Assembly (NCBI GenBank): GCA_903911825.1 | Contig: CAIWFB010000216.1 | Coordinates: forward strand, 1,317 to 65,316 | Direction: 5' to 3' | Source: an uncultured Verrucomicrobia subdivision 3 bacterium | GTDB taxonomy: Bacteria; Verrucomicrobiota; Verrucomicrobiia; Limisphaerales; UBA11358 | DNA: 64,000 nt | Shown here: positions 1 to 40,646 of the stretch, piece by piece | How the letters are laid out: the number at the start of each line of letters is the position of its first letter | Position numbering within the stretch: the stretch's first letter is position 1 | Notes under the pieces: generated by a model | What the model was told of the DNA's origin: nothing | What the model saw: the letters and a program-made list of their open reading frames with translations, nothing else | Database searches by the model: none | Program-made: the position numbers and the translations under genes

Positions 1-135
1 TGGGCGGAAAGAGGAAAGGCCGACAAAATAAAAAGCTAAAAAGCTGACACACTGAAAAGCTAAAAAGCTAAAAGGCTGAAATACTAACAAGCTGACAAAA
101 TAAAAGGCTGAAAACGGAAAGCGGAGGTTCAGGGT
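1..135. repeat. Phased 8-bp repeat array A (cut by window edge)
   Basis: In-register octamers aagctaaa aagctgac acactgaa aagctaaa aggctgaa atactaac aagctgac ..., ending in gcggaggt. A-rich on the + strand. Lies just 3' of the GT gene that stops at 173. Confidence 0.85.
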
Positions 136-2375: not shown

Positions 2376-2576
2376 TTTTTAAAAACTAAAAAACTAAAAA
2401 ACTGACATACTGAAAAGCTAACATGCTGAAATGCTGACATGCTGACATACTGAAAAGCTAAAAAGCTGAAAAACTAAAAAGCTGAAAAACTAAAATGCTG
2501 ACATGCTGAGATACTGAAATACAGAAAAGCTGAAATGCTGAAATCACAAAAGTTGAAAGCAAGAAAGTAGAAAAAT
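2376..2576. repeat. Phased 8-bp repeat array B
   Basis: About 25 consecutive octamers (aaaactaa aaaactga catactga aaagctaa catgctga aatgctga catgctga ...). They fill the whole spacer between two co-directional GT genes. Confidence 0.9.
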
Positions 2577-2592
2577 GCGGTCGGATGGTAGA

Positions 2593-3879
2593 TTACCCCA
2601 GCAGTTGCTTTAACAGGTGCTTAATTTGTTCACGATAGCGCTCGGGCGTGAACTGCTGGGCGAATTGTCCGGCAATTTTCCCGTCGCTGACCAAAGCATC
2701 GCGATTACGAGCGTAATACTCGAGTCGTTGCGCGATGGCGTCGCTATTCATGACCGGCACGCGCCAAGCTGGGTCCGGCACTGGCACGCCGCAGTTATCG
2801 GTGACGATCACCGGCAGTCCGCACGCCATCGCTTCTAACGCCACAAACCCAAAGGTGTCCACTAGTGAGGGCAAAACCAAAACGTCGGCGGCGCCATACA
2901 AGGCACGCAACTCGGCTTTATTTTTTTTACCCGCCAACCGGATGGCGGCCGGGGAGCGCGCGAGAAAACGGTCGGTCTCCCCACTGTTAACGCCCACCAA
3001 AGTCAATTGCACGCCCGGCCCACACTGTTCCACTGCGCGGATCAGCCAAGGAATCCCTTTGCGCAACCCGATACCGCCAACAAATAAAACCTGCAAGGGC
3101 GCACGTGCGTCCCGCACCGGCGGAGCGACGGGAGGCTGCCAGAGTTGGGTATCCACCCACAGAGGAATCGGCACCAGCCGTTCAGCGGCAAAACCGTTGG
3201 CCAGAAAACTGCGGCGGTGGACTTCGGAAAGGACCAGCAACACATCCGCCATGGCAAATTCCTCGGCCTTACGCGCCGCCAACTCCGGCGGGTCGAACGG
3301 AACCGGCGGCGGCTCACCCAAAGCCTCAGCCGCCTGCGCCAACAGGCTGGTCAAAAAATCCGGATGGACTTGGGGGCAATCCAACACCTTAAGCATCCCA
3401 CGTTCGCCCGCCGCGCGGAAGGAATCACGCGCACAGGTTTCGGTGCCCACCACCAGGCGACATTCCGAAGCCGACACGCAGCGCGCCACCGCCCGGTCAA
3501 AAGCGAAGTTAGCCTGATACCAAGGGTAGGAGCCGCGAGAGAGCGGAAAGGCTGACGCGAAACGATGCAATAAAAAGGGAACGGGAAATTCCTGGAGCCG
3601 GGAGCGGGGAACACCCGTGATCCGCCGATTCAACATCGTCGGTTGCCCCAGCAAAACGCCCAACCACCGACCCCACTGACCGGGCGCGTCGAAAATCGAG
3701 CCGTAAAACATCTCCAGCAAACCGGCCTCCTCGGCGGCCAGCGCAATTTGAAACGCCTGATGCACGCCGCTGTAAGCCACGATGACGGGACGATTTGGTT
3801 GAAAAGCTGACACGCTGAAAGACTGAAAGCCGGAAAGCCGGATCAAATTTGGTGGTCGCGATTGGGCCGGGGTGGCCAA
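2593..3879 (-). CDS. Glycosyltransferase, GT4-like (true start probably internal, near 3780)
   Basis: PSLVDTFGFVALEAMACGLPVIVTD motif. The first ~33 codons of the ORF (…SGFQSFSVSAFQPN) are just repeat array C translated, and they overlap the upstream gene. A GTG at about 3780 (…IVAYSGVHQAF) is a more plausible start. Confidence 0.8.
   Translation of the reverse strand: MATPAQSRPPNLIRLSGFQSFSVSAFQPNRPVIVAYSGVHQAFQIALAAEEAGLLEMFYGSIFDAPGQWGRWLGVLLGQPTMLNRRITGVPRSRLQEFPVPFLLHRFASAFPLSRGSYPWYQANFAFDRAVARCVSASECRLVVGTETCARDSFRAAGERGMLKVLDCPQVHPDFLTSLLAQAAEALGEPPPVPFDPPELAARKAEEFAMADVLLVLSEVHRRSFLANGFAAERLVPIPLWVDTQLWQPPVAPPVRDARAPLQVLFVGGIGLRKGIPWLIRAVEQCGPGVQLTLVGVNSGETDRFLARSPAAIRLAGKKNKAELRALYGAADVLVLPSLVDTFGFVALEAMACGLPVIVTDNCGVPVPDPAWRVPVMNSDAIAQRLEYYARNRDALVSDGKIAGQFAQQFTPERYREQIKHLLKQLLG
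3798..3845. repeat. Phased 8-bp repeat array C (short)
   Basis: ttgaaaag ctgacacg ctgaaaga ctgaaagc cggaaagc cgg…, about 6 units, at the junction of the Wzy-like gene stop and the GT gene start. Confidence 0.7.
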
Positions 3880-5282: not shown

Positions 5283-5335
5283 GCGTTGTTTTTACCGATG
5301 CCCCGACGGTCTCGGCCAGGGCTGCTTGCAGTATT

Positions 5336-6361
5336 TCAGTTTTTCCGTGCCACCGCCTGTTGAATCACTGCCAAATAGCGGGTCGCGACCTTGGTGGCAT
5401 GCAGGTCACGCAAATGCGCCGGGCCATGGGTAAGCAACTGGAGCCGGGCGGCATCATCCCCTAACAAGGTGAAGATACGGTCGGCCAGTTCTTCAACATT
5501 ATCATTGGAGAACGTCACCCCGCACGCCCCCATCGCTTCCGGCAAACCGCCTCCCGCAGAGCCGATGACCGCACAGCCACAAGCAATCCCCTCCAACGCT
5601 ACAATCCCAAAAGGCTCATTCCAACGCGAGGGCACCACCAAGATTTTATGCGCGGAAAGCAGCTGGGCAATCTCCGCTGGTCGCTTACGGCCCACAAAAA
5701 TCACCTGGCCGGTCAGGCCGGTGTCACTGACTTGCTGTTCTAACGCCGCCCGTTCCGGCCCGTCGCCGATCACCGTCAGGGATGGACAAACACCCCGCTG
5801 CTTGAGTTGAGCCATCGCTTGTAACAGCAATTTAACGCCCTTGTCCGAAACGAGTCGGCCCACGAACGCCAAATCACGCGTGCGGGCGATGCCATCGCGG
5901 ATATAAAACACCCCATCATCGTAGGGATTATAAATGATCGTGCTGGAGCCGGGCAGAGTTCGCGACACGGCCTGGCTGACGGCGATATTGACGGCATAGC
6001 GCGACACCCATTTTTTGAGAAACCCCCAAGTGTCCTCGGGCGAATCATACCAGATCCCGTGCTTGACCACATACGGACGGCGGACCAGTAGCAGCGGCCA
6101 GAGACCGCGCAGACTGATGCCGTTTTGCATGAACACGTCGGCCCCACGCGTCAGCCGCAGGAACTCCCGAACACCCGGGTTGCGAACGATGGGATAGGCA
6201 AAGGTTCTTTTGGCCACGCGCGGATCTTCCAGCACCCGTGTCACAATCGTCACCTCATGCCCTGACCGCGTCCATTCATCCGCCAGAATTTCGGCGATCG
6301 CCTCCATGCCGCCCACGCTCGGATAAAAAACCGTATAAAAGAGGATTTTCATTCGACACAT
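5336..6361 (-). CDS. Glycosyltransferase, GT4-like
   Basis: PSRWNEPFGIVALEGIACGCAVIGS motif. The likely start is MKILFY (about 6352), which removes the overlap with the upstream gene. Confidence 0.85.
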   Translation of the reverse strand: MCRMKILFYTVFYPSVGGMEAIAEILADEWTRSGHEVTIVTRVLEDPRVAKRTFAYPIVRNPGVREFLRLTRGADVFMQNGISLRGLWPLLLVRRPYVVKHGIWYDSPEDTWGFLKKWVSRYAVNIAVSQAVSRTLPGSSTIIYNPYDDGVFYIRDGIARTRDLAFVGRLVSDKGVKLLLQAMAQLKQRGVCPSLTVIGDGPERAALEQQVSDTGLTGQVIFVGRKRPAEIAQLLSAHKILVVPSRWNEPFGIVALEGIACGCAVIGSAGGGLPEAMGACGVTFSNDNVEELADRIFTLLGDDAARLQLLTHGPAHLRDLHATKVATRYLAVIQQAVARKN

Positions 6362-7494
6362 TTTTGCTTGAGTTTAAGGATGGGGCGCTCAATGCAATAG
6401 TAGGAAAAAATCGCTGTGGCGACCGCTGGTAGCCACCAAATGCGCCAGTCATAAAACCAATACTGGCCTAGTTTAGAGCCGGAATTGACTGAAAGAAAAA
6501 GAGCGTGCCACACATAAAGTGAATAAGACAAAACTCCCAGCCATTCCACCGAAGCCCAGTTCAATATGCGGTGCGACAGACCGGTTGTATGAAAGATGGA
6601 AATCCACATCGCCAGCATTACGGCCAAAGCCTGAACGCCCGGAATGAATGAATCCAAGGCTTTATTATGCAGGCAGCCCGTCCATCTGCACCATTCACCG
6701 ACGATAATTACCACCATTGCCAAAACCAACATTAGTGATGCAGAAAACGGTTTCAAGGTGTAATCAATTTTACGAATCAAGAATGCGCCCAGACATCCTA
6801 CTGCAAGTGAATCTGCATAAGCCAGGATTGACCACTCGCCAAAGATGCGCCCGAAAAGCGAACCGTTAGTTCCCATGTTCATTCCGGCCATGCGTTCCAG
6901 AGGACACATAAGCACGGGAATGAGCAAAAGACAGAATGCCGTCTTAAAGCGACGCCAAAGTATAAGTCCAACAATCAGCGCTGGCCAAACAAGGTAAAAT
7001 TGTTCCTCAACTGCCAGGCTCCAAAAATGCGTTGTGAGGCTTGGAGCTTTGCCAAAAATATTTCGGGTGAACGTCAGCACTCCAAACCATGAAGACGATC
7101 CATCATGATACAACCCGAACAAACACAAAACCCCCAAAACCCCCAAGTAGATGAAGTATACCGGGAATATGCGCAGTGCTCGACGTATGTAAAACGATTT
7201 CAAGGAAACGCGCCCGTTTTTTTCCGCCTCCTTCAAGAGTAGATGGGTAATTAAAAAGCCGCTTAACACAAAGAAAAGTCTGACCCCAAGCAGGCCTAAA
7301 GTTTGCAGAAAATATACAAGTGGATATTTTAAGGAAAATAATTCCAGTGGAAACCCCCGCGTTAAATGAGCATGCGATATCAAAACAAGCAGAATGGCCA
7401 CAGCCCTCCAGCCATTCAGGGAAGGAATACGTCCACCCTTAAAAACAGTGTCAAAAGAGCCCGGCTGAACCGGGAGTTCAGTTTTCATAGTCAC
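6349..7494 (-). CDS. Acyltransferase family 3 (OafA-like O-acyltransferase), integral membrane
   Basis: N-terminal SLNGWRAVAILLVLISHA motif and about 10 TM helices over 381 aa. Confidence 0.8.
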   Translation of the reverse strand: MTMKTELPVQPGSFDTVFKGGRIPSLNGWRAVAILLVLISHAHLTRGFPLELFSLKYPLVYFLQTLGLLGVRLFFVLSGFLITHLLLKEAEKNGRVSLKSFYIRRALRIFPVYFIYLGVLGVLCLFGLYHDGSSSWFGVLTFTRNIFGKAPSLTTHFWSLAVEEQFYLVWPALIVGLILWRRFKTAFCLLLIPVLMCPLERMAGMNMGTNGSLFGRIFGEWSILAYADSLAVGCLGAFLIRKIDYTLKPFSASLMLVLAMVVIIVGEWCRWTGCLHNKALDSFIPGVQALAVMLAMWISIFHTTGLSHRILNWASVEWLGVLSYSLYVWHALFLSVNSGSKLGQYWFYDWRIWWLPAVATAIFSYYCIERPILKLKQKCVE

Positions 7495-10161: not shown

Positions 10162-11359
10162 ATATGGTTATTTTTTCTTGGCACAAATGGCCTAAAAAAT
10201 ACTGGCGGCAGTTCTCCTGAAAACATTTTTTGCCGATTTCGCTCGCATTTTTGCCCAGCTGGCGGCGTAAGGCTTCATCGCCCAGGAGCCGGGTCAAAGC
10301 CTTGGCCAGCGCCTCGGCATCAGGGTTATCCACCACCTCGGCGACGTCCTGGTTTTCCCGCGCCCACTGCACGGCGGACGCATAGGCTGGGCCAAATATA
10401 AAGATGGGCAAACCTGTGAGTGTGTAATCGGCTAGTTTACTTTGGAAACTCGTGATCATCCAAATCTGATCCTCCGGCCGGAAACTCAACGGCAGGAACA
10501 GCACATCGGTATTTTTTCGAAACTCCTCCAACAACTGTCCATAAGGGATCGTCGGTTTTATGTGAACATTAGGCAAGCGCAGCCCCAGCCGCGCGACCGA
10601 CTTCTCATTCTGGTGCGAATAAATCAGGATTTGACCGCCCAGAGGTTCCAGTGCCGCCGCCGCCAAGCGTAATGCGTCCGCATAGCCATCGGTGATTGTT
10701 CCCGCAAAGCCCAGCGTAAAGCTCCGGCCCGGACGTGGCTCCGGCGGTTCCGGGTAAACCGGCGCGTCGGCGGCGCGACAAGGATATAAACAGGAACCGG
10801 CCACGCCGTATTGCTCCCGGTAGAAACTTTCCATCCAAGGAGAAATGCAAAGCCGGGAGACCGCCTGCCGGTAGACGACCTGAAACCGCCGTTCGGTCCA
10901 GAACTGCAACCGCGCGGGCAGGTTGCATGAGATTGGAGGGTGGTCATGCACAATCAAATGCAACGGCAGTTTCAACGCTTGCGCCGCCAGCGCCGCCGTG
11001 TGCCAGGACCAGCCATGAGCCACAGTCAACACCGCCTCCGGGCGAAAATGTTCTGCCCGGCGAATGATTTTCCCCACCATCAAACGTGTCGTGGCTTGCC
11101 GCCAAATGGAGCTGATGCCGGCAAAGCGGGTATGGGCCAGGCGGCGTGCTCCCAATGGCAGGTGAACATAGTTCACCCCGGGCAGACGGCGCTCTGGCTT
11201 TGACACTTCGGCCAATTCGCAAATCCAGAGTTTTTCCGCCGGATACGTTTGCAAATTGCGGAACAGCAGGGTGGAGCCGGCAACCGTGTGCTCAACCGGC
11301 ACATCACCGATATATAGCAGACGGGGAACCACGACAGGTTTAGTTACTACAGCGGCCAT
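10148..11359 (-). CDS. Hypothetical protein, possibly a divergent GT-B glycosyltransferase
   Basis: 403-aa ORF in the operon with two Rossmann-like halves. I can name no diagnostic motif, so only the CDS call is firm. Confidence 0.5.
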   Translation of the reverse strand: MAAVVTKPVVVPRLLYIGDVPVEHTVAGSTLLFRNLQTYPAEKLWICELAEVSKPERRLPGVNYVHLPLGARRLAHTRFAGISSIWRQATTRLMVGKIIRRAEHFRPEAVLTVAHGWSWHTAALAAQALKLPLHLIVHDHPPISCNLPARLQFWTERRFQVVYRQAVSRLCISPWMESFYREQYGVAGSCLYPCRAADAPVYPEPPEPRPGRSFTLGFAGTITDGYADALRLAAAALEPLGGQILIYSHQNEKSVARLGLRLPNVHIKPTIPYGQLLEEFRKNTDVLFLPLSFRPEDQIWMITSFQSKLADYTLTGLPIFIFGPAYASAVQWARENQDVAEVVDNPDAEALAKALTRLLGDEALRRQLGKNASEIGKKCFQENCRQYFLGHLCQEKITIYEKN

Positions 11360-12669: not shown

Positions 12670-13932
12670 TCAACATGAGGCAAGGGTGCCGGTTAACCGG
12701 CTTTTTATTATTCCTCGGACCACCATGTATGTGACTAAAAGCAGCATTGGAATGGAGCAAAACCATCCGAATATGAGCACGCCTTTCACCTCGCCTAGAT
12801 TCAAATAGTTAAGAAGAATGATTTGCAGGGCAATCGTGAGGATTGGGGCCATCCACGCATGCCAGATCCAGCCGCGAGCGGTGGCCAGACTCCACACAAT
12901 CCCTGTAAAGCCGCCGAGGATGGAGCCGGCCACCATCCATGGCAGTTCCCGGGTCAACCCGGCATATTTAGCACCGAGCACCCAAAGAATTTCACGCGGG
13001 AACAGCACGCTGCAGGCAAACAGGCTGCCGGCAAAAACGGTATAGGCTGCCAATGACACCAGAAACAATCTCACCAGGCGGGCCAGCGTTTCACAGCGTG
13101 CATAGGTTGGAACCACCACCCCGTTCAGCACGCTGGCAATGACTGCAAATAACACGCTCAATCGCCCCAATGCCCCCAATTCCGCGACCTTCTCCACGTT
13201 GCCAAAAATGGAGATCAGCCAGATAGTGATCTGCCCCTGAAAGGCAAAAAAGAAAACGGTTAAAAACTGTTTGCGGATGAAGACCATCAGTTCCTTGCCC
13301 TGTCCGGCATCGCGGGGCGCGTCAAAGTCCAAAATCTCCGCCGCCCGCCGCCGCACCAGCACCGCCTGCAACGTGGCTCCGATGGTGGCCACCAGCACCG
13401 CCGCCAAGGCGTTGATGAATATCAACGCCAGCCCGCACAGGAGCGTGAGCCGGATCAGGGCGGCAACCAGTTCCAGTTTCTGCACGGCCAGATATTTTCC
13501 GTGCAGCCGCAATGGGGTGGCATACACGCTGGTATTGAATAGCCCCCACAACGTCATAATGATGACGGCAGTAAGCGAGAGCGCCTTGAGCCACGGCACC
13601 TCGTTTTGCCGGAATAAATACAGGGAAAAACCCACCCCAACCGGCACGGCAACCCAGGCCAGTTTGAAACGGATTTCCAGGACGGTGGACACCAACCGGC
13701 TCAATGCCCCGCGATCCCGCCACACGCGCCCACCCACGGCATTCAAGCCGGTGCCAATGCCTGAATCCGTCAGCATGCTAAGAATCGCCTGCAAGCTGGT
13801 GGCGATGGTGTAGGCGGCAAACTCGCGTTTATCCAGCACCCGGACGAGTAGAAACCCGCTCAAGGCCATAGTCAACTGCACCACGCCTTGCATGGCACCA
13901 AATTTTGCGAGCAGTTGTATTTTTTGCTTCAA
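12670..13932 (-). CDS. Polysaccharide flippase, MOP/Wzx-like
   Basis: 420 aa with about 12 TM helices. The start in the ORF track is TTG, and the first ATG is 36 nt downstream (13896). Assignment rests on architecture and context. Confidence 0.65.
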   Translation of the reverse strand: MKQKIQLLAKFGAMQGVVQLTMALSGFLLVRVLDKREFAAYTIATSLQAILSMLTDSGIGTGLNAVGGRVWRDRGALSRLVSTVLEIRFKLAWVAVPVGVGFSLYLFRQNEVPWLKALSLTAVIIMTLWGLFNTSVYATPLRLHGKYLAVQKLELVAALIRLTLLCGLALIFINALAAVLVATIGATLQAVLVRRRAAEILDFDAPRDAGQGKELMVFIRKQFLTVFFFAFQGQITIWLISIFGNVEKVAELGALGRLSVLFAVIASVLNGVVVPTYARCETLARLVRLFLVSLAAYTVFAGSLFACSVLFPREILWVLGAKYAGLTRELPWMVAGSILGGFTGIVWSLATARGWIWHAWMAPILTIALQIILLNYLNLGEVKGVLIFGWFCSIPMLLLVTYMVVRGIIKSRLTGTLASC

Positions 13933-13974
13933 ACAGTTTTAGGCAGGGGATTTCTATTTTCGAAAACACACTGT

Positions 13975-14043
13975 TCAACAGGCAGCCCAAATGAAGTCGG
14001 TAAAGGATTTTCCTGCCCGGCTGGGTTCGAGGATTAGGTCCAT
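13975..14043 (-). pseudogene. 22-codon remnant of a wzm 5' end
   Basis: It translates to MDLILEPSRAGKSFTDFIWAAC*, against the Wzm N-terminus MDLILEPGRAEKNYWRDLW. The 32 nt spanning the ATG and the junction to the array (about 14023-14054) match 15863-15894 at 30/32 positions. Confidence 0.65.
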
Positions 14044-14050
14044 GGTTTGG

Positions 14051-14246
14051 AAAGATGAAAAGCTAAAACTTGATGTAAAAAGCTGACAAACTGAAAAGCT
14101 AAAATGCTAAAATCTGACATGCGGACAAACTAAAAGGCTGAAAAGCTTACTTACTAACAAGCTGAAAAGCTAAAAAGCTAAAATGCTAAAATCTGACATG
14201 CTGAAACTCTAAAAACTGACATGCGGAAAAACTGAAAAGGGAAAAC
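14051..14246. repeat. Phased 8-bp repeat array D
   Basis: gctaaaat gctaaaat ctgacatg cggacaaa ctaaaagg ctgaaaag …, with occasional 7-bp units. Confidence 0.9.
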
Positions 14247-14295
14247 GTTCACCGCGGAGCTTTTTAGCAACAACCAAGCAACCAAGCACAAAGGG

Positions 14296-14598
14296 TCAGC
14301 CGATTCTTTTCTTCCGGTCACTCCAATATTCAGGGCGGCGAGAACCGTGGGCCACGGCCAGAATCCAAATGGTGTCATTCCAGATGAAATAAGGAACATA
14401 GTAGCGAAAAACCTTCAGGTTTACCTGCTGGTATCCATTGGGACGGAGCCGGGGAATTTCTGAATTGTGGCTGATCCATTGAATTGCTGCGCGAACCTCT
14501 TCCTTCAATCGAACACCCAATCCCGGCTCAGTTTCCTCGTAGTAAGCAATGGCTTCAGTTAATTCCTGCTCGGCCTCGAGAAGGATTTCTATCTTCAT
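14296..14598 (-). CDS. Type II toxin, RelE/ParE family
   Basis: 100 aa, MKIEILLEAEQELTEAIAYYEE…VPYFIWNDTIWILAVAHGSRRPEYW. 4-nt overlap with the upstream antitoxin gene. Confidence 0.75.
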   Translation of the reverse strand: MKIEILLEAEQELTEAIAYYEETEPGLGVRLKEEVRAAIQWISHNSEIPRLRPNGYQQVNLKVFRYYVPYFIWNDTIWILAVAHGSRRPEYWSDRKKRIG

Positions 14599-14831
14599 GC
14601 GGGAAAGCGCCGGTCCAGCCGGGCAAACACCTCATCAAAGCCGGCGGAACGGGCGCGGCCGGACTTAACCTCCGCCAGGCGCCGCCCGATTTCCGTTTCC
14701 CAGGCGGCCTCAACAGCGGGGGAAAAATCTTCGCTCTCATCCGATAAATCCAACAAAATACGCGCCAGTGTGAGCCGTTGATCCGACGGCAATTCCAAGG
14801 CATCTTTGGCGAGTTCAGAAATCGCTTTCAT
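14595..14831 (-). CDS. Antitoxin, putative addiction-module component
   Basis: MKAISELAKDALELPSDQRLTLARILLDLSDE…AWETEIGRRLAEVKSG. Start taken at the first ATG (Met13 of the ORF). Confidence 0.7.
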   Translation of the reverse strand: MKAISELAKDALELPSDQRLTLARILLDLSDESEDFSPAVEAAWETEIGRRLAEVKSGRARSAGFDEVFARLDRRFPA

Positions 14832-14870
14832 GCGTGGTAAATTACGCCGTGAAGGTGGATTGTCCAATAC

Positions 14871-15038
14871 AAATAAAAACTGAAAAGCTGAAATGCTGAC
14901 ACACTAAAAGGCGGACAAACTGAAAAACTAAAATGCTAAAATCTGACATACTGAAAGGCTGACAAACGGACAAACAAAAAGCTAAAAAGCTGAAATACTA
15001 AAATACTGAAATGCTAACAGGCTGAAAGGCTGACAAAT
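14871..15038. repeat. Phased 8-bp repeat array E
   Basis: ctgaaaag ctgaaatg ctgacaca ctaaaagg cggacaaa ctgaaaaa ctaaaatg …. Confidence 0.9.
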
Positions 15039-15064
15039 TTAGATAATTCCACTGTTTTAATTTT

Positions 15065-15883
15065 TTAAATGACGTCGGCGAAGGTTTTTTCCAGGCGGCG
15101 GAAATACCAGAGGCCACTCATACAGAGGACGAGCGAGACCAAAACGGAAAAGCTGACACTGGAAAGCTGAAATGGCGTTTGACCGCGCAGGAGGCACCAG
15201 CGGAAGCCATCAATGACGCCGACCATGGGGTTGAGGGAATAGAGGAGTTGCCATTTCGCGGGCACGACGTGGCTGCTAAATCCGACCGGTGAAACATAAA
15301 GCCCGAATTGCACGATGAAGGGGACGATATAGCGGAAGTCGCGGTATTTCACGTTGAGCGCACAAAGCCAGAGTCCGGCCCCAAAGGCGGCGGCAAACGC
15401 CAACAGCGTGAAGAGCGGTAGCGCCAGCAGCCGGAGGTCGGGGGCGAAGCCATACCAGAGCATCATCGCACCCATCAGGCCGAGGGTGATGAGAAAATCC
15501 ACGAGGCTGGTGATGACGGAACCGGCGGGGACGATGAGGCGCGGAAAATAGATCTTGGAGATGAGGTTGGCGTTGCCGATGAGGCTGTTGCTGGATTCGC
15601 TCAAGGCGGTGGCAAAGAATTGCCAAGGCAACATGGCGGACATGACGAGCAGCGCATAGGGCACATCAGCGGGGGCGGTCAGTTTAGCGATCTTACTGAA
15701 CACGATGGTGAAAACCACCATGGTCAGGAACGGACGGATGACGGCCCACGCGACGCCGATGACCGTTTGCTTGTAGCGCACGGAGATATCGCGCCACGCG
15801 AGGATGATGAACAGCTCGCGGTAGTGCCAGAGATCGCGCCAGTAATTTTTTTCGGCGCGGCCGGGTTCGAGGATGAGGTCCAT
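15065..15883 (-). CDS. wzm: ABC-2 type polysaccharide export permease (Wzm-like)
   Basis: YWRDLWHYRELFIILAWRDISVRYKQTVIGVAWAVIRPFLTMVVFTIVF and 6 TM helices. Start taken at MDLILEP (Met15). No partner ATPase gene is adjacent. Confidence 0.85.
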   Translation of the reverse strand: MDLILEPGRAEKNYWRDLWHYRELFIILAWRDISVRYKQTVIGVAWAVIRPFLTMVVFTIVFSKIAKLTAPADVPYALLVMSAMLPWQFFATALSESSNSLIGNANLISKIYFPRLIVPAGSVITSLVDFLITLGLMGAMMLWYGFAPDLRLLALPLFTLLAFAAAFGAGLWLCALNVKYRDFRYIVPFIVQFGLYVSPVGFSSHVVPAKWQLLYSLNPMVGVIDGFRWCLLRGQTPFQLSSVSFSVLVSLVLCMSGLWYFRRLEKTFADVI

Positions 15884-15894
15884 GGGTTGGAAAG

Positions 15895-16097
15895 GGGACA
15901 AACTGAAAAGCTGACTTACTAACAAGCTGAAAAGCTAAAAAGCTGAAACTCTAAAAATTACAAACGGACAAACGGACAAACAAAAAGCTGAAAAGCTGAA
16001 AAGCTAACAAACTAAAATGCTGAAAGGCTGACAAACTGACACACTAAAAAGCTGAAATACTGAAATGCTAAAATGCTAAAATCTGACATGCTGAAAG
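15895..16097. repeat. Phased 8-bp repeat array F
   Basis: It runs from just upstream of the wzm ATG to the stop codon of the four-helix-bundle gene. Confidence 0.9.
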
Positions 16098-16098
16098 T

Positions 16099-16464
16099 TC
16101 AGGCGCCGGCTTTGCGTAACTTGGAAACCATGGTGGTAAAGATGGCGATGAGTTCACTCGTTTCACGCAGGAGGTTTTCCATTGGTTCACCAGTGATGCC
16201 GCAATCGTCCCGCAACAATTCAAGCCATAATTGTGTTTCATCCGCTTCCTGAAGCAAGCCATCCAGCTTGGAACAAAATTCCGAATTGGAACGCGCCCGG
16301 GACGCCTCCCGAGCGTGGGCGGCCACTGAGGTTCCGGAACGCAGGAGTTGATGGCCGAGCACTTTGACCTCGGCGCGAGCCGGGGGAAGTTTCACATATA
16401 GCTGGATAGTCGCCGAGGCATAACGTTTGGTCCGGTCACGCAATTCATCGGATAGGCGGCTCAT
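16099..16464 (-). CDS. Four-helix-bundle protein (23S rRNA intervening-sequence protein family)
   Basis: 121 aa, …YASATIQLYVKLP…LGHQLLRSGTSVAAHAREASRARSNSEFCSKL…ADETQLWLELL. Confidence 0.8.
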   Translation of the reverse strand: MSRLSDELRDRTKRYASATIQLYVKLPPARAEVKVLGHQLLRSGTSVAAHAREASRARSNSEFCSKLDGLLQEADETQLWLELLRDDCGITGEPMENLLRETSELIAIFTTMVSKLRKAGA

Positions 16465-16467
16465 ATT

Positions 16468-16648
16468 CTAAAAAACTGAAAAGCTAAAATGCTGACATGC
16501 TGACAAACCAAAATGCTGAAAAACTAAAAAACTGAAATGCTAATAAGCTGACACACTAAAAAGCTGACAAACTGACATCCTAAAAAGCTGAAAGGCTAAA
16601 ATACTGAAACCTGAAAGGCTGAAAGCTGAGACCGGAGGCCTGAAAGGA
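16468..16648. repeat. Phased 8-bp repeat array G
   Basis: It starts 3 nt upstream of the four-helix-bundle ATG and ends in G-rich variant units (…gctgagaccggaggcctgaaagg). Confidence 0.9.
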
Positions 16649-16743
16649 GCAGGCGCCGCCCTTGGTCGTTTCGCGAGGTTTTTCGCAAAAGATTCCCGGC
16701 ACCAGCACCGCATGTTTTTGCCAAGGCATGAGCCTTAGGGGAG

Positions 16744-17092
16744 GTCGGAGACCTGTGACCTGACAAGCTGACATACTAACAAGCTAAAAAGCTAAAAAGC
16801 TAACATGCTGACAAACTAAAACACTAACAAGCTGACATACTGACATACTGACATACTGACATGCTGACATGCTGACATGCTAAAATGCTAAAAAGCTGAC
16901 ACGCTAAAACACTAACAAGCTGACATGCTGACATGCTAAAAAGCTGACACGCTGACAAACTAAAACCGGAGGTCGGAGATCAAAAATCTAAGACCTGAGA
17001 CCTGACATACTGACATACTGACACGCTAAAAAGATGAAACGCTAACAGACTGACACGCTGAAACACTGACATACTGAGACCTGAACTGACTG
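16744..17092. repeat. Phased 8-bp repeat array H (longest)
   Basis: About 40 units, including a near-perfect run of six (a/g)ctgacat units at 16831-16878. Confidence 0.9.
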
Positions 17093-17121
17093 GCGGCGCG
17101 ACAACGACGGCTTACCAAATT

Positions 17122-17676
17122 TCATTGGCTGCCTAACAATTTCAACAAAAAGGGTAGGACGCGACGACCATTCTTTTCCCAGCTCTGCAGCAGCTTGACG
17201 CGCGCGAGGGTGTGGGTGCGGGCGGCGCCGGTCAGCGGCTGGGCGTGGGCGCTGATGCGCTCCAGGCGGCTGGGGCTGTCGCTCAAATGTTCGGTCAACT
17301 GCTGGCGCAAAAAGCTGCCGGCGAGATGGCGCAGTTCGGCGACGGCCTCGTAGTGGGTGCGGCGCGTGGCGGTGGCGACTTCGCGGACGGCACCGAGTTC
17401 GCGCAGATATTTCAGGCCCTGACTGGCGGAGCCTTTGCTCAGGTGCAGTCGCGCGGCGAGGTCGTCCAAGGTCAACGGCTGGTGCGAAATGAACAGGAGC
17501 CCGTAAAGCTCGGCGTAGGAACGGGGCTGGCCGACAGCGCGGGAAAATTGGACGAAGAGTTGGATGACCTCGGTTTCCACCGGAGTCAACCCGGAAGCCG
17601 GGTGGTTCGTTTGAGCACGGGCAACCATGAGTTTAGCGTTCGCCTGGGAATGTGCGCTGGCCACAGGACGGAGCAT
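17122..17676 (-). CDS. Winged-helix transcriptional regulator, GbsR/MarR-like
   Basis: …VIQLFVQFSRAVGQPRSYAELYGLLFISHQPLTLDDLAARLHLSKGSASQGLKYLRELGAVREV…RRTHYEA. AGGAG lies 8 nt upstream of the ATG. Confidence 0.65.
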   Translation of the reverse strand: MLRPVASAHSQANAKLMVARAQTNHPASGLTPVETEVIQLFVQFSRAVGQPRSYAELYGLLFISHQPLTLDDLAARLHLSKGSASQGLKYLRELGAVREVATATRRTHYEAVAELRHLAGSFLRQQLTEHLSDSPSRLERISAHAQPLTGAARTHTLARVKLLQSWEKNGRRVLPFLLKLLGSQ

Positions 17677-17702
17677 AGTGAGCTCCTGGAATTATTCAAA
17701 TA

Positions 17703-17872
17703 AAAATGAACAAACTGACATACTGAAAGATGACATACTGAAAAGCTAAAAAGCTGACAGGCTGAAATCTGAAAGCGGAGACCTGAAACTGGAAAGCTGA
17801 AAGCTGACATACTGAAAAGATGACATACTGAAAGATGACAAACTAAGATCTGAAATCGGAGATCTGAGAAAA
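17703..17872. repeat. Phased 8-bp repeat array I (in a divergent intergenic region)
   Basis: Same polarity as all other arrays. Contains cggagacc and cggagatc variant units. Confidence 0.85.
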
Positions 17873-17934
17873 GGGAGGGCGGCGGGTTTGGCGGTTGCTT
17901 AGCGGGGGGGACTTCCGTTTTAATGACGTGAACT

Positions 17935-19161
17935 TTGAAAATTCTGCTGCTCAATCAGGCGTTTTATCCCGACGTGGTCTCCACGGCGCAGCATCTCAGC
18001 GAGCTGGCGGTGGCACTGGCGGAGCGCGGGCATACGGTGACGGTGGTGACGGGGCGGCGCGCTTACGATGCGCCGGAGCAAACGTTCGCGGCGCACGAAG
18101 TCTGGCGCGGCATCCAGATCCACCGGGTGGCGGCGACCCGGCTGGGGAAGGGAGCCAAATGGCGGCGGGCGGTGGATTTTGGCAGTTTCGTGCTGGCAAG
18201 CGGGTGGCGGTTGCTGACCTTACCGCGGCACGACGTGGTGGTGGCGCTCACCACGCCGCCGTTGATCTCGTTCATCGGCGCGTGGCGGGCCCGGTGGTGG
18301 GGCGCGGCGTTCGGTTATTGGGTGATGGATATGAATCCGGACGAAGCGATCGCGGCAGGCTGGTTACGGCGGGATTCACTCATGGCCAAGGTGCTGGAAC
18401 GGATGTCGCGCTTCAGTTTCCGGCAAGCCAACCGGATCATCGCGCTCGACCGTTTCATGCACGACCGCATCGTGGCCAAAGGCATCGCCCCGGAAAAAAT
18501 CCTGACGCTGGCACCGTGGTCGCAAGATCAGGACGTGCACTTCGACGCGAGCGGGCGGGAACGGTTCCGCGAGCAGCACGGGCTGACGGGCAAATATGTG
18601 GTGATGTATTCCGGCAACCACAGCCCGGTGCATCCGCTGGACACGTTGCTGGCGGCGGCGGACCGGTTGCAAAGCGATGAGTCCATCGTGTTCTGTTTTG
18701 TGGGCGGCGGGAGCGAATTCAAACGCGTGCAAGCTAGCGTGGCCAGCGGTCAGCGACCGAACGTGCGGTGCCTGCCGTATCAGCCGCTGGCGCAACTGGC
18801 GGCTTCGCTCTCGGCGGCGGACGCGCACGTGGTGGTGCTGGGCGAGGCGATGCTGGGCCTGGTGCATCCGTGCAAAATCTACAACATGCTGGCGGTGGGC
18901 GCCCCGGTGATCTATGTCGGGCCGCAACCGAGCCACGTGAGCGAAATTTTGGCGCAACTGGGCGCGGAGTCTCCGTGGTGCGCTGCGCCGCACGGCGCGG
19001 GGGACACTTTGGCGGAGCAGATCCAGCAACTCCGCCAACGGCCCGCGCAACGGCAGGGAGCGGCGGCCGTGACGGCGACCTTTGCGAAAGCGGCGTTATT
19101 GCCCCGACTCGTGGCGGCGTTGGAAACCATGGCGACACCGCAACCACCGCGCCGCGAATGA
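17935..19161 (+). CDS. Glycosyltransferase, GT4, WcaI/WbuB-like
   Basis: MKILLLNQAFYPDVVSTAQHLSELAVALAERGHTVTVVTG… N-terminus. 408 aa. Confidence 0.8.
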   Translation: MKILLLNQAFYPDVVSTAQHLSELAVALAERGHTVTVVTGRRAYDAPEQTFAAHEVWRGIQIHRVAATRLGKGAKWRRAVDFGSFVLASGWRLLTLPRHDVVVALTTPPLISFIGAWRARWWGAAFGYWVMDMNPDEAIAAGWLRRDSLMAKVLERMSRFSFRQANRIIALDRFMHDRIVAKGIAPEKILTLAPWSQDQDVHFDASGRERFREQHGLTGKYVVMYSGNHSPVHPLDTLLAAADRLQSDESIVFCFVGGGSEFKRVQASVASGQRPNVRCLPYQPLAQLAASLSAADAHVVVLGEAMLGLVHPCKIYNMLAVGAPVIYVGPQPSHVSEILAQLGAESPWCAAPHGAGDTLAEQIQQLRQRPAQRQGAAAVTATFAKAALLPRLVAALETMATPQPPRRE

Positions 19162-38410: not shown

Positions 38411-39214
38411 TTAACCTAACAAGCGGAGGACCGATTGCGGCATCGAGTTGGCCTGCGCGAGCATCGCCGTGCCAGATTGGACGAGGATGTTGTTTTTCGC
38501 GTAGGTGGTGCTTTCTTGCGCCACGTCCACATCGGTGATGCGACTTTTAGCGGCGGAAAGGTTGTTGCTCAACGAGCTCAACTGGTCACTGTGGTAACCG
38601 AGGGCTTCGATGTTGGAACCGATATTGGCACGATCTTTAGCGAGCTGCGTGATCGCGGCTTTGACGTTGGTCAAGGCCGTGGCCGCATGCGCCGAGGTGT
38701 CAACCGAAGACCCGGTAGCGGTGGTGTAAGTGGTGTTACCCAGATTCACCCCGACGTTGGAGAACGTGTTACCATCGCTGTCCGAGGTCACGTTCAGCGC
38801 CGTGCCACTGAAGAGGCTGACGCCGTTGAAATCCTTGGTAGAGGCGTCACCGACGTAGGTAGCCAAGGTGCTAAACTCCGTGTTATACAGGGAGCGATCG
38901 GCGTCCGTCTTGGTGACGTCTTGTGAGAGCACAGACAATTCACTCATCCGGTTGAGCGCGTCATTCACTTTTTGCAGATAACCGTCCTGCGTTTGGTTGA
39001 ATGAGATGGCGTTGCCCACGTTGCTCTGCGCCGCATTCGTGCGGGAGATCTGGGCGTTGAGCTTCATAGACACAGCGAGACCCGCGCTATCATCCGCCGG
39101 CGAAACGATCTTCGAACCGGAGGACAAGCGTGCGAGCGATTTGCTGAGCATAGCGCTGGATTGACCGAGCTGTGCGGCCGCGGATTGTGCAGTAGTATTT
39201 GTATTGATGACCAT
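38411..39214 (-). CDS. fliC: Flagellin (copy 1, 267 aa)
   Basis: MVINTN…LSSGSKIVSPADDSAGLAVS… and …RITDVDVAQESTTYAKNNILVQSGTAMLAQANSMPQSVLRLLG. Confidence 0.92.
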   Translation of the reverse strand: MVINTNTTAQSAAAQLGQSSAMLSKSLARLSSGSKIVSPADDSAGLAVSMKLNAQISRTNAAQSNVGNAISFNQTQDGYLQKVNDALNRMSELSVLSQDVTKTDADRSLYNTEFSTLATYVGDASTKDFNGVSLFSGTALNVTSDSDGNTFSNVGVNLGNTTYTTATGSSVDTSAHAATALTNVKAAITQLAKDRANIGSNIEALGYHSDQLSSLSNNLSAAKSRITDVDVAQESTTYAKNNILVQSGTAMLAQANSMPQSVLRLLG

Positions 39215-39282
39215 AACTGACTCCTTCCATGAGTCACCCCTTGCGGGGTTTTAGATGTTTTGAACGAGGCATCCCTGCCTCG
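39215..39282 (-). promoter_or_regulatory. Flagellin-1 leader: SD-overlapping GGA site + two hairpins, distal loop AGGGAU
   Basis: mRNA sense: CGAGGC-AGGGAU-GCCUCG … CCCCGCAAGGGG … CAUGGAAGGAGUCAGUU-AUG. Confidence 0.65.
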
Positions 39283-39408
39283 GAGCGGACTTTGGAAAGG
39301 GCGTCCACCCAGTTAATCCCCCGGCCGTTTGCGGTCGCCGTCACCGTTGTCTCCTAAATCATTATCCGTGAACCACACTGATAATTTGTGACTTACTCGA
39401 CACCTAAT

Positions 39409-39435
39409 CTATCGGCCGACTCCCCAAACACTTTA
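39409..39435 (-). promoter_or_regulatory. Sigma-28 (FliA)-type promoter of flagellin 1
   Basis: The minus strand reads TAAA-N15-GCCGATAG. The consensus is TAAA-N15-GCCGATAA. Confidence 0.7.
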
Positions 39436-39654: not shown

Positions 39655-39663
39655 GGTGAAGAA

Positions 39664-40637: not shown

Positions 40638-40646
40638 AGCAAAAAA

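What the first reader, a model, noticed from the sequence alone, without database searches (positions are those of the whole stretch)
14051..17872. Strictly phased, single-polarity 8-bp repeat arrays replace spacer DNA throughout the polysaccharide locus
Seen directly:
- The DNA between almost every gene of this locus consists of runs of a degenerate octamer. On the + strand it is roughly (A/G)CT(G/A)A(A/C)A-N.
- The commonest units are gctgaaaa, gctaaaaa, gctgacat, actgacat, gctaaaat and actgaaaa. G-rich variants such as cggagacc and cggaggtc occur near some array ends.
- Register is held for up to about 40 consecutive units, with only occasional 7-bp units.
- I find nine arrays: 1-135, 2376-2576, 3798-3845, 14051-14246, 14871-15038, 15895-16097, 16468-16648, 16744-17092 and 17703-17872. 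Together they span about 1.6 kb by these hand coordinates. Six of them lie within 14.0-17.9 kb.
- All nine share one polarity (A-rich strand is +) and none is palindromic.
- There are no unique spacers, and the period is not a multiple of 3. ORF-track ORFs 14178..14399, 16068..16262, 16580..16774 and 17586..17954 only translate the repeat into SAFQ/SACQ/FSLS strings.
- The arrays are much more AT-rich than flanking genes.
- A ~25-bp block, gctaaaatgctaaaatctgacatgc, recurs near 14098, 14178, 14928 and 16067. This implies exchange between arrays.

Inference:
- Most flanking genes are on the minus strand. Their transcripts would therefore carry (U)nCAGC octamers that are G-poor, unstructured and have a YC dinucleotide every 8 nt.
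- That resembles a Rho-loading (rut-like) platform or a platform for a multimeric RNA-binding protein controlling polarity of a long polysaccharide operon.
- Alternatives are a DNA platform for an oligomerising regulator, clustered weak promoters (TTGTCA and TAGTAT-like hexamers recur every 24 bp), or a recombination substrate.
- I cannot match these arrays to any described element class (CRISPR, REP/BIME, attC, MITE).
Basis: partly seen in the sequence, partly recalled or inferred. Interest (0 to 1): 0.9.

Follow-up and report, generated by a model that had tools for sequence, protein, structure and literature searches.

The report
Expanded octamer repeat arrays between genes
The gaps between genes of this Verrucomicrobial sugar-coat (polysaccharide) operon are filled by greatly expanded runs of an 8-base motif that, in short form, marks gene ends and gene starts across the phylum; this resembles the still-unexplained cyanobacterial "STRR" repeats, and I found no description of it.

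Summary
Nine period-8 arrays (unit R-C-T-R-A-M-A-N on the + strand, about 1.65 kb in total) lie at the stated coordinates. All have one polarity, none occurs in the other 46 kb of the window, and chance expectation is zero. They are identical in four independent assemblies, so they are not an artefact.

The window comes from a Verrucomicrobiota genome, probably Limisphaerales. The unit is not private to this locus. Runs of 3-5 units of GCTGAAAN are common in intergenic DNA across Verrucomicrobiota, and their orientation follows a rule. The A-rich reading sits 0-12 nt after stop codons. The T-rich reading (NTTTCAGC) sits about 9-21 nt before start codons. When both occur in one gap they fold into long hairpins, often enclosing a conserved four-helix-bundle "23S-IVS protein" gene next to wzm/wzt.

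In this window only the T-rich-in-sense form is present. Each run has grown to 15-39 units. The runs differ by large indels from a relative that is 94% identical in the flanks.

Best reading: a lineage-specific expansion of an STRR-like intercistronic motif that gives unstructured, U-rich, Shine-Dalgarno-less leaders. The Rho-loading idea is neither excluded nor supported, because C is about equal to G in the transcript. The promoter-cluster idea is rejected.

The parts
15..122 (-). Octamer array 1. It reads NTTTCAGC in the sense of the minus-strand operon, lies downstream of GT4 gene 173-1363, and runs towards the window edge.
2376..2580 (-). Octamer array 2, with 19 units in a single phase. 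It ends 5 nt before the ATG of GT4 gene 1365-2375.
3798..3845 (-). Short array 3 (3-5 units), immediately after the stop of gene 3843-5282.
14051..14246 (-). Octamer array 4, between the ParE stop and the duplicated wzm start remnant.
14871..15038 (-). Octamer array 5, between the wzm stop and the antitoxin start (40 nt upstream of the ATG at 14831).
15895..16097 (-). Octamer array 6. It fills the gap between the IVS-protein gene and wzm, and ends 12 nt before the wzm ATG (15883). It is the site of the only indel between population samples (15936).
16468..16648 (-). Octamer array 7, between the conserved leader island and the IVS-protein gene. It ends 4 nt before the ATG at 16464.
16744..17092 (-). 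Octamer array 8, the longest (39 anchors, 26 of them in one phase). It lies between the MarR/GbsR-like stop and the conserved leader island. It is about 150 nt shorter in relative L131.
17703..17872 (-). Octamer array 9, in the divergent region. It lies 27 nt upstream of the MarR/GbsR-like ATG (17676). Its period is irregular (7 or 8).
16641..16759 (-). Non-repeat island kept intact between arrays 7 and 8. It is a conserved leader element with two hairpins and an ops-like GGCGGC box.
   Evidence: 97% identical in L131. Present in 6 relatives with or without arrays. The ops-like motif is found in relatives.
16099..16464 (-). Gene for a 121-aa four-helix-bundle '23S rRNA intervening-sequence protein' (PF05635/TIGR02436). 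Its homologs in relatives are flanked by the octamer runs.
15065..15883 (-). wzm-type ABC-2 permease gene.
17122..17676 (-). MarR/GbsR-like regulator gene that heads the locus in relatives.
14000..14055 (-). Duplicate of the first ~45 nt of wzm (12 codons) plus its upstream junction. It continues as a 22-codon remnant ORF, a footprint of rearrangement at an array/gene-start junction.

Best explanation
The arrays are a lineage-specific, runaway expansion of a short intergenic octamer motif (GCTGAAAN / NTTTCAGC) that is spread through Verrucomicrobiota. This makes them an STRR-like family of dispersed short tandem repeats.

Across the phylum, runs of 3-5 units are placed in a fixed orientation. 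The A-rich reading starts at or just after a stop codon. The T-rich reading ends about 10-20 nt before the next start codon. Where both occur in one gap, the transcript folds into a long intercistronic hairpin, and the loop often holds a four-helix-bundle IVS-protein gene beside wzm/wzt.

In this window and its closest relatives only the T-rich-in-sense form is present. Slippage and unequal exchange have grown each run to 15-39 degenerate units, so the runs fill the untranslated gaps of the minus-strand polysaccharide operon.

I infer that they act on the transcript. They would be unstructured, U-rich, Shine-Dalgarno-less leaders that keep each start-codon region open for ribosome loading in a 57% G+C genome whose genes mostly lack Shine-Dalgarno sequences. 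They would also uncouple neighbouring, partly mobile cistrons (the toxin-antitoxin pair, the IVS-protein gene, glycosyltransferase genes). Changes in array length may tune expression, and the arrays incidentally serve as recombination substrates.

Shown here: the anatomy, the phylum-wide distribution, the orientation rule, hairpin formation in relatives, the lack of structure in this window, and the rapid length turnover.

Inferred: that the arrays are transcribed, their role in ribosome loading, and any selective value of the extra length.
For: - The unit and its single polarity are established.
- 38 of 120 genome hits to a 4-unit pattern are Verrucomicrobiota/PVC, with the same GCTGAAAN unit.
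- In loci chosen by protein and not by repeat, strict CTGAAA runs of 3 or more units occur at 0.44 per 10 kb, where essentially none is expected.
- Orientation rule: A-rich runs after stops have a median distance of 11 nt. Of the T-rich runs before starts, 13 of 39 lie at 9-21 nt. Fisher p = 0.003-0.02.
- Four of four loci chosen only by IVS-protein homology obey the rule, and their arrays lie only at the junctions around the IVS-protein gene, wzm and wzt.
- A paired gap in L214 folds at -71.7 kcal/mol, z -3.9. The window arrays are unstructured, with z -0.8 and +1.1.
- Window arrays end 4, 5, 12, 27 and 40 nt before start codons.
- Only 7 of 41 window genes have a Shine-Dalgarno-like motif.
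- Long arrays of this dialect elsewhere are T-rich in sense in 7 cases and A-rich in 2.
- L131 (flanks 94-97% identical and ungapped) has arrays at the same three sites but with large indels. More distant relatives (72% MarR identity) keep synteny and the leader island but have no arrays.
- The only indel between population samples lies in an array.
- Published analogues: STRR arrays (PMC2670836) and the hmw 7-bp repeat hairpin in a 5'UTR (PMC12721329).
Against: - There are no expression data, so it is not shown that the arrays are transcribed or that they affect translation.
- The orientation statistics rest on crude ORF calls and about 120 array-gene pairs, with p only about 0.01.
- The window lacks the A-rich partner runs, so the hairpin function seen in relatives cannot apply here.
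- Runs ten times longer than the phylum norm may be selectively neutral by-products.
- Three gaps of 50 nt or more in the same operon do without arrays.
- The 4-unit search pattern fixed the CTRAMA core, so hits from other phyla say nothing about that core.
Confidence: 0.5

Rival explanations
1. Neutral by-product. The short 3-5 unit motif is functional, but the 15-39 unit arrays of this lineage are selectively irrelevant simple-sequence expansions that are tolerated in untranslated gaps.
For: - Arrays are absent at the same sites in relatives with 72-77% MarR identity.
- Array length and unit order turn over quickly.
- The units are degenerate mosaics with higher-order periods of 16-64 bp, which is typical of unequal crossing-over.
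- The functional island between arrays is preserved untouched.
Against: - Bacterial genomes are biased towards deletion, yet 1.65 kb of repeats persists at the same sites in at least two diverged lineages (L131, and L148/L137).
- Expansion is polarity-biased: 7 T-rich against 2 A-rich elsewhere, and 9 of 9 here.
Confidence: 0.2
2. Rho-loading (rut-like) platform. The untranslated U-rich octamers recruit Rho, so that expression of distal genes depends on an antiterminator bound at the leader.
For: - The arrays are untranslated, unstructured and up to 349 nt long.
- There is a UC dinucleotide in about 65% of units.
- A conserved leader with an ops-like box (GGCGGYAGCNTG; 10 hits against 1.6 expected) precedes arrays in relatives, and a NusG paralogue lies in locus L128.
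Against: - C is about equal to G (0.17-0.18), not C greater than G.
- The ancestral run is only about 32 nt long and abuts start codons.
- The complementary A-rich form is equally common after stops.
- Among the annotated ORFs of the window there is no NusG paralogue. The smaller ORFs were not scanned.
- The ops-like box is degenerate in the window itself (GGCGGCGCCTGC).
Confidence: 0.1
3. Protein platform on DNA or RNA. An oligomerising factor binds one octamer per subunit. It could be a MetJ/omega-like regulator, a nucleoid protein, or the pentameric IVS protein encoded beside the arrays.
For: - The 8-bp period has four invariant positions (C2, T3, A5, A7).
- Modal run length is 3-5 units.
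- Runs occur in direct and inverted arrangements.
- There is tight physical linkage to the IVS-protein gene.
- The closest solved homologue, 2RLD, has 5 chains in the entry.
- From my own arithmetic, four octamers (32 bp) span about three helical turns.
Against: - The orientation rule relative to stops and starts points to the transcript rather than duplex DNA.
- The IVS protein is near-neutral (pI 7.8).
- Most array loci carry no IVS-protein gene within reach: about 57 of 67.
- No ribbon-helix-helix regulator was identified.
Confidence: 0.12
4. Contingency locus. The arrays are hypermutable repeats whose copy-number changes switch or grade the expression of glycosyltransferase and export genes, diversifying the surface polysaccharide.
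For: - The arrays lie in a surface-polysaccharide locus, directly upstream of genes.
- Copy number differs between close relatives.
- The only indel among population samples is in an array.
- There is precedent in the H. influenzae hmw 7-bp repeats (PMC12721329).
Against: - The units are degenerate: 40 different octamers among 161 units, and perfect runs of only about 3 units. This strongly lowers slippage rates.
- The arrays are identical in four assemblies from different samples, apart from one 1-nt indel.
Confidence: 0.08

Closest known systems
STRR (short tandemly repeated repetitive) heptamer arrays of heterocystous cyanobacteria
   Same: Both are tandem arrays of a 7-8 bp non-coding unit, dispersed in intergenic regions of one bacterial lineage. 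Examples lie between co-transcribed genes such as hupS-hupL. They can form hairpins. Their function is still unknown, with transcript stability or translational coupling proposed (PMC2670836).
   Different: Here the unit is 8 bp with an unrelated sequence, and the host phylum is Verrucomicrobiota. An orientation rule relative to stop and start codons is seen here. The window arrays have a single polarity, cannot form hairpins, and are much longer than the phylum norm.
Haemophilus influenzae hmw1A/hmw2A (ATCTTTC)n repeat in the 5'UTR
   Same: A pyrimidine-rich 7-bp tandem repeat is transcribed upstream of a surface-structure gene. Its length tunes expression, and it forms a long hairpin cut by RNase III (PMC12721329).
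   Different: The hmw repeat is perfect, hypermutable and confined to one or two loci. The units here are degenerate, dispersed at many junctions and shared across a phylum.
Dispersed short-unit satellite families in prokaryotes (for example Burkholderia 6-8 nt repeats)
   Same: These are families of non-coding satellites with the same short unit, scattered through a genome (PMC6749651).
   Different: That survey reports no Verrucomicrobial family and no orientation rule.
REP/BIME and 23S rRNA intervening sequences (IVS)
   Same: In relatives, inverted pairs of runs make intergenic hairpins inside operons, as REP elements do. The four-helix-bundle gene sits in the loop of such a hairpin, as its homologues sit in IVS hairpins of 23S rRNA. 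The IVS biology is from my own knowledge.
   Different: The arms are built of tandem octamers rather than a unique palindrome. The window itself has no inverted pairs.
MetJ metbox (8 bp) and omega-repressor heptad operator arrays
   Same: These are tandem 7-8 bp units, direct or inverted, read one per protein dimer (my own knowledge).
   Different: Those arrays have 2-10 units at promoters of a regulon. Here no cognate protein is known, and the arrays reach 39 units.

Membership tests
STRR-like dispersed short tandem repeats | Tandem head-to-tail copies of a short (about 7 bp) non-coding unit | tested here: met
   Period 8; 161 anchored units; the period is not a multiple of 3.
STRR-like dispersed short tandem repeats | Intergenic location, often between co-directional genes | tested here: met
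   All nine arrays lie in gaps of the minus-strand operon or in its divergent head.
STRR-like dispersed short tandem repeats | The same unit recurs at many sites in a genome and across a lineage | tested here: met
   Nine sites in the window. There are 38 Verrucomicrobiota/PVC loci among 120 hits, and 0.44 runs per 10 kb in loci chosen by protein. A whole-genome count for this organism was not possible.
STRR-like dispersed short tandem repeats | The cyanobacterial heptamer sequences themselves (homology to STRR1-3) | tested here: not met
   The unit is RCTRAMAN in Verrucomicrobiota. This is an analogue, not a homologue (STRR sequences from my own knowledge).
Rho utilisation (rut) site | C-rich, G-poor (C greater than G) over about 60-80 nt | tested here: not met
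   In the minus-strand RNA, C is about 0.17-0.18 and G about 0.17, with U about 0.48.
Rho utilisation (rut) site | Unstructured, untranslated RNA | tested here: met
   z -0.8 and +1.1 against shuffles. The position is intercistronic.
Rho utilisation (rut) site | Rho-dependent termination at or after the site | not testable with these tools
   This needs Term-seq with and without bicyclomycin.
Contingency-locus simple sequence repeat | Perfect or near-perfect repeats prone to slippage | tested here: not met
   There are 40 distinct octamers among 161 units, and the longest identical run is about 3 units.
Contingency-locus simple sequence repeat | Copy-number polymorphism within populations | tested here: inconclusive
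   Four assemblies are identical except for one 1-nt indel inside an array. There are large differences from a relative that is 94% identical.
CRISPR | Repeats of 23-47 bp separated by unique spacers | tested here: not met
   The units are 8 bp, contiguous and without spacers.
REP/BIME or MITE | Imperfect palindrome or terminal inverted repeats | tested here: not met
   There is no minus-polarity cluster anywhere in the window. Inverted pairs exist only in relatives.
Integron attC cassette junctions | An imperfect inverted-repeat recombination site with an integron integrase nearby | tested here: not met
   No inverted repeat is present. None of the 40 window ORFs scanned against Pfam carries an integrase domain.
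Sigma-70 promoter cluster | -35/-10 hexamers with 16-18 nt spacing, in excess over chance | tested here: not met
   One site in 13800-18100 against 2.9 +/- 1.7 in shuffles.
Known structured RNA family (Rfam) | Match to a covariance model at the gathering score | tested here: not met
   No hits at the gathering score. Only two sub-threshold chance hits.
MetJ/omega-type operator array | Tandem 7-8 bp units with a cognate ribbon-helix-helix protein | tested here: inconclusive
   The unit length fits, but no cognate protein was identified and the arrays are far longer than 2-10 units.

The most novel reading that the evidence does not exclude
The octamer runs and the four-helix-bundle '23S-IVS protein' (PF05635/TIGR02436, Avd-like, probably pentameric) form one system. 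Inverted runs make an IVS-like hairpin around the protein's gene inside Verrucomicrobial wzm/wzt operons. The protein recognises the octamer runs (about 4-5 units, one per subunit) on RNA or single-stranded DNA, and so controls processing, stability or translation of neighbouring cistrons. Solo hairpins and the giant single-polarity arrays of this window would be derivatives of that module. If true, this would give a first function to a very large orphan protein family and explain why its genes live in hairpin loops of 23S rRNA.
Probability: 0.1. Interest if true: 0.85.

Novelty: new variant of a known kind. Interest (0 to 1): 0.6.

Why it matters
Dispersed short tandem repeats such as the cyanobacterial STRRs have had no established function since their description. 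My recollection, not checked here, is that they were described around 1990.

The Verrucomicrobial octamer family adds two things that make the question testable. First, there is an orientation rule: A-rich runs after stop codons and T-rich runs before start codons. Second, the runs recur together with a conserved gene of unknown function inside polysaccharide export operons.

This points to an RNA-level role in how SD-poor bacteria organise translation and processing of long operons.

On the practical side, these arrays break short-read assemblies at polysaccharide loci. Many homologue-bearing contigs are only about 1 kb long. The arrays also create spurious ORFs.

Tried and rejected
- Assembly artefact: rejected. 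The arrays are identical in ENA and Logan assemblies from four samples.
- Coding repeat: rejected. The period is 8, and the ORFs across arrays are extensions of spurious frames.
- CRISPR, REP/MITE and attC: rejected. There are no spacers, no inverted repeats and no integrase.
- Sigma-70 promoter clusters and intrinsic terminators: both are fewer than in shuffles.
- Rfam: nothing found.
- Literature searches for the sequence itself and for Verrucomicrobia with octamer or tandem-repeat terms: nothing specific.
- Conservation of the long arrays at the same locus in relatives with 72-77% MarR identity: absent. The expansion is therefore recent.
- Hits to the 4- and 6-unit patterns outside Verrucomicrobiota were treated as separate repeat families, because the search pattern fixed their core. 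These include CCTGAAAC in Bacteroidales, ACTGACAR in about 59% G+C contigs, perfect CCTAACAC at contig ends, and a CCCTAAA telomere-like 7-mer.
- IVS-protein charge as a hint of nucleic-acid binding: near-neutral (pI 7.8), so uninformative.
- Replication-strand polarity could not be assessed from a 64-kb window.

Full report
**1. The observation**

Reading 13900-18000 directly shows runs of gctgaaaa, gctaaaaa, gctgacat and similar units between the genes. It reports essentially nothing comparable in 18-64 kb.

A lag-8 autocorrelation and a motif-cluster scan recover the same segments, and only in + polarity. The 4-unit pattern CTRAMANN x4 matches 69 times, all on the + strand, against 0 in 100 dinucleotide-preserving shuffles.

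From 161 anchored units the profile is R-C-T-R-A-M-A-N. C2, T3, A5 and A7 are invariant, and 40 different octamers occur. The longest strictly in-phase run is 26 units, followed by 19 and 17. The + strand is A 0.38-0.51, C 0.14-0.24, G 0.17-0.29, T 0.12-0.19. Array G+C is 0.27-0.50, and 0.31-0.38 for seven of the nine arrays, against about 0.55 in the flanks.

The 25-bp block recurs exactly at 14098, 14177 and 16067, and with two mismatches at 14927. It contains a 7-bp unit that shifts the phase. This shared derived irregularity shows copying between arrays.

The same DNA is 99.99% identical, arrays included, in four independent assemblies.

- The in-phase run is 26 units, not about 40.
- Arrays occupy 6 of 9 internal gaps of 50 nt or more, not almost all.
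- The minus-strand transcript has C about equal to G and is not C-rich.

**2. Context**

All genes flanking the arrays are on the minus strand. They comprise GT4 and GT2 glycosyltransferases, an acyltransferase, an FkbM methyltransferase, hexapeptide transferases, a wzm ABC-2 permease (15065-15883) and a ParE/antitoxin pair. They also include a 121-aa four-helix-bundle '23S rRNA intervening-sequence protein' (PF05635/TIGR02436; 16099-16464) and a MarR/GbsR-like regulator (17122-17676). A GT4 gene and an exosortase EpsH gene diverge on the + strand.

The other 46 kb holds an SNF2 helicase, HrpA, LpxD, four flagellin genes, FliD, LytB, MTHFR, MlaD and an MMPL protein. It has several large gaps but no arrays.

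Read in the sense of the operon, every array is NTTTCAGC. The arrays end 4, 5, 12, 27 and 40 nt before the start codons of the IVS-protein gene, a GT4 gene, wzm, the MarR-like gene and the antitoxin gene. The single polarity is therefore explained by all arrays lying upstream of minus-strand genes.

Named homologues of the MarR-like and IVS proteins come from Limisphaerales, Verrucomicrobiae and Verrucomicrobia bacteria. The window is thus Verrucomicrobiota, probably Limisphaerales.

**3. Relatives at the same locus**

The closest relative is L131 (MarR 95% aa identity). It has arrays at the same three sites in the same polarity. The gene and flanks align ungapped at 94% and a non-repeat island at 97%. 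The arrays differ by large indels: the MarR-to-island array is about 200 nt against 349 nt here.

L148 and L137 (wzm 79-85%, IVS protein 80%) also carry T-rich arrays before wzm.

Relatives at 72-77% MarR identity (L125-L130, L132) keep the order MarR, leader island, IVS-protein or small genes, polysaccharide genes. They have no period-8 arrays. At most they show single units or a proto-run such as gcagaaagctgaaat. The MarR-to-IVS-protein gap is 173 nt in L125 and 657 nt here.

The long arrays are therefore a recent expansion that was added to the spacer DNA rather than replacing it. Among population samples, the only indel in 6.9 kb is a 1-nt change at 15936, inside an array.

**4. The unit is phylum-wide**

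Of these, 38 are Verrucomicrobiota/PVC: Akkermansiaceae, Luteolibacter, Opitutaceae, Puniceicoccaceae, Chthoniobacterales, Terrimicrobiaceae, subdivision 3, Pedosphaera and Kiritimatiellae. All carry runs of 4-6 units of GCTGAAAN. From my own knowledge the phylum makes up only a few per cent of species, so this is a strong enrichment.

In Verrucomicrobial loci fetched by protein rather than by repeat, strict in-phase CTGAAA runs of 3 or more units occur at 0.44 per 10 kb, where chance predicts essentially none. The modal size is 3-4 units.

A 6-unit scan of metagenomes again hit the limit. It returned GCTGAAAN arrays in 52-62% G+C contigs, alongside unrelated dialects that I set aside.

**5. 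Orientation rule and hairpins**

Pooled over Verrucomicrobial loci, arrays show no overall preference for either strand relative to neighbouring genes. Position resolves this.

- A-rich-in-sense runs lie next to stop codons. The median distance is 11 nt, 17 of 29 lie within -3 to +12 nt, and the TGA is often part of the first unit.
- T-rich-in-sense runs cluster 9-21 nt before start codons (13 of 39).
- The opposite combinations are spread widely, with medians of 64 and 69 nt.
- Fisher tests give p = 0.003-0.02. The gene calls behind this are crude.

Many gaps carry the order stop, (GCTGAAAN)n, spacer, (NTTTCAGC)n, start. L214 1765-2030 folds at -71.7 kcal/mol with z -3.9 through array-array pairing. 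Some pairs are adjacent hairpins right after a stop codon (L116, L056).

The window arrays have no partner and are unstructured as RNA, at -26.8 and -21.7 kcal/mol over about 215 nt, with z -0.8 and +1.1. Long arrays (10 units or more) of this dialect elsewhere are T-rich in sense in 7 cases and A-rich in 2.

**6. Link to the IVS-protein gene**

A tblastn search of window proteins against all array loci found IVS-protein homologues (63-81% identity) directly beside arrays in L072, L117, L119, L145, L148, L166, L214, L217 and L236.

As a test free of repeat-based ascertainment, I fetched four loci chosen only by IVS-protein homology: L253, L255/L256, L257 and L259. In three of them the gene lies between wzm and wzt, and in the fourth (L255/L256) it lies just before wzm. 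In all four, 3-5 unit runs obey the rule. In L259 the wzm stop is followed by four A-rich units whose last unit contains the IVS-protein ATG. Four T-rich units then lie 11 nt before the wzt ATG. The other gaps examined in that 20-kb locus have none.

The protein family is very large and tightly conserved, with more than 4000 clusters at E of 1e-15 or better and the top 120 at 78-86% identity (one 98-aa fragment at 99%). Many of its contigs are only about 1 kb, consistent with repeats breaking assemblies. The nearest solved structure, 2RLD, has five chains. The window protein is near-neutral, with pI 7.8.

**7. Other tests bearing on mechanism**

- Sigma-70-like promoter matches (1 against 2.9 +/- 1.7) and terminator-like sites (3 against 6.5 +/- 2.3) are fewer than in shuffles.
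- No Rfam family matches.
- Only 7 of 41 window genes have a Shine-Dalgarno-like motif. Open, A/U-rich start regions are therefore likely to matter for initiation in this organism; that is an inference.
- The non-repeat island 16641-16759 is conserved in six relatives. It has two predicted hairpins, with three pairs showing compensatory change.
- The island ends in CCAAGGGCGGC(A/G)C. In relatives this reads GGCGGCAGCTTG, close to the E. coli ops box GGCGGTAGCGTG (ops sequence from my own knowledge). The pattern GGCGGYAGCNTG has 10 hits in held loci against 1.6 expected, mostly just upstream of arrays.
- L128 has a NusG paralogue in the locus.
- The first ~45 nt of wzm, with its upstream junction, are duplicated at 14000-14055 ahead of a different gene. 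This shows rearrangement at an array/gene-start junction.

**8. Interpretation**

The best-supported account is that the arrays are a lineage-specific expansion of an STRR-like intercistronic motif of Verrucomicrobiota.

Shown:
- the unit, its distribution and the orientation rule;
- hairpin formation in relatives and the lack of structure here;
- fast length turnover and exchange between arrays.

Inferred:
- the arrays are transcribed with the operon;
- they serve as unstructured, U-rich leaders that keep start regions accessible and uncouple neighbouring cistrons;
- their length may tune expression.

The extra length may equally be a tolerated by-product (rival, 0.2). The Rho platform idea (0.1) gains context from the ops-like leader. 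It loses ground on composition and on the short, codon-adjacent ancestral form. A protein-platform reading (0.12), including binding by the IVS protein, is not excluded. A classical contingency switch (0.08) is unlikely because the units are degenerate.

**9. Comparison with known systems and novelty**

The closest known kind is the cyanobacterial STRR family. These are 7-bp intergenic tandem arrays that can form hairpins, and their function is unknown (PMC2670836). Next is the hmw 7-bp repeat in a 5'UTR, which forms an RNase III hairpin (PMC12721329). Dispersed short-unit satellites are also recorded in a few prokaryotes (PMC6749651).

I found no description of the Verrucomicrobial octamer. 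I therefore class it as a new variant of a known kind. Interest is moderate to high because of the orientation rule and the link to the IVS protein, not because of the Rho hypothesis.

Noticed in passing
window 16641-16759 (minus strand); L131 882-1000; L132 ~1600-1705; L128 ~10530-10630; L125 ~10590-10720; L129 ~6400-6520: A conserved ~110-nt non-repeat element lies downstream of the MarR/GbsR-like gene in all six relatives. It has two predicted hairpins (three pairs with compensatory changes) and ends in CCAAGGGCGGC. In relatives the box reads GGCGGCAGCTTG, close to the RfaH ops box. The pattern GGCGGYAGCNTG has 10 hits in held loci against 1.6 expected. It is a candidate JUMPstart/ops-like leader of Verrucomicrobial polysaccharide operons.
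   Followed up: partly
L253 9091-11711; L257 9061-11710; L259 9083-11785; L255 10001-13331: In relatives the four-helix-bundle '23S-IVS protein' gene sits between wzm and wzt, or just before wzm, like an intervening element inside the ABC-transporter gene pair. In the window no wzt is present. An unannotatable 407-aa ORF (12670-13893, no Pfam or NCBIfam hit) follows instead.
   Followed up: partly
window 14000-14055 vs 15840-15895: The first ~45 nt of wzm (12 codons) plus its upstream junction are duplicated in front of gene 12670-13893, leaving a 22-codon remnant ORF. L129 also holds a 48-aa wzm N-terminal fragment.
   Followed up: partly
L129 6381-10700; L132 1756-2587; L193 2496-2820; L255 11370-11900; window 14296-14831: The zone between the MarR-like gene or wzm and the biosynthetic genes collects small mobile-type genes in different relatives. 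These include ParE/antitoxin, NTP_transf_2, DUF433, GIY-YIG, DUF6036 and PhdYeFM. It looks like a cassette hot spot.
   Followed up: no
L011, L027, L063, L114 (MAG RPQK01 'Acidobacteria bacterium metabat2.299'); L139, L178, L213, L218, L222, L237 and others: A second octamer dialect, ACTGACAR, forms long arrays, often as inverted pairs at contig ends, in about 59% G+C contigs. A third dialect, CCTGAAAC, occurs in Bacteroidales, directly upstream of start codons in the A-rich sense.
   Followed up: no
L133, L140, L141, L144, L162, L170, L174, L176, L197, L198 and others; L023 5438-5826: Perfect CCTAACAC repeats lie at the ends of low-G+C metagenome contigs. A CCCTAAA 7-mer, which I recall as the plant-type telomere repeat, is present in a 'Halanaerobiaceae' MAG contig. 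These look like eukaryotic telomeric or contaminant sequence.
   Followed up: no
window 49365-49389: A different octamer, GCTTAGTG x3, lies about 13 nt upstream of the ATG of a beta-CASP/RMMBL ribonuclease-like gene (49402-50778).
   Followed up: no
window 38411-42762: Four flagellin paralogues and fliD form a cluster with large intergenic gaps, none of which holds an octamer array.
   Followed up: no
window, 41 gene starts: Only 7 of 41 genes have a Shine-Dalgarno-like motif within 4-22 nt of the start codon, so the organism appears SD-poor.
   Followed up: partly
L059 300-5000 (Opitutaceae MAG): Four short octamer runs within 5 kb are each followed by a second conserved repeat (ggagtgcggcg...gtggagtgcggtggcccgacaccgcc). 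This suggests a composite repeated element.
   Followed up: no
window 5330-5345: The stop codon of gene 5336-6352 lies inside a two-unit A-rich mini-run (aaaaACTGAAATACTGcaag). This is the only A-rich-after-stop instance in the window.
   Followed up: no
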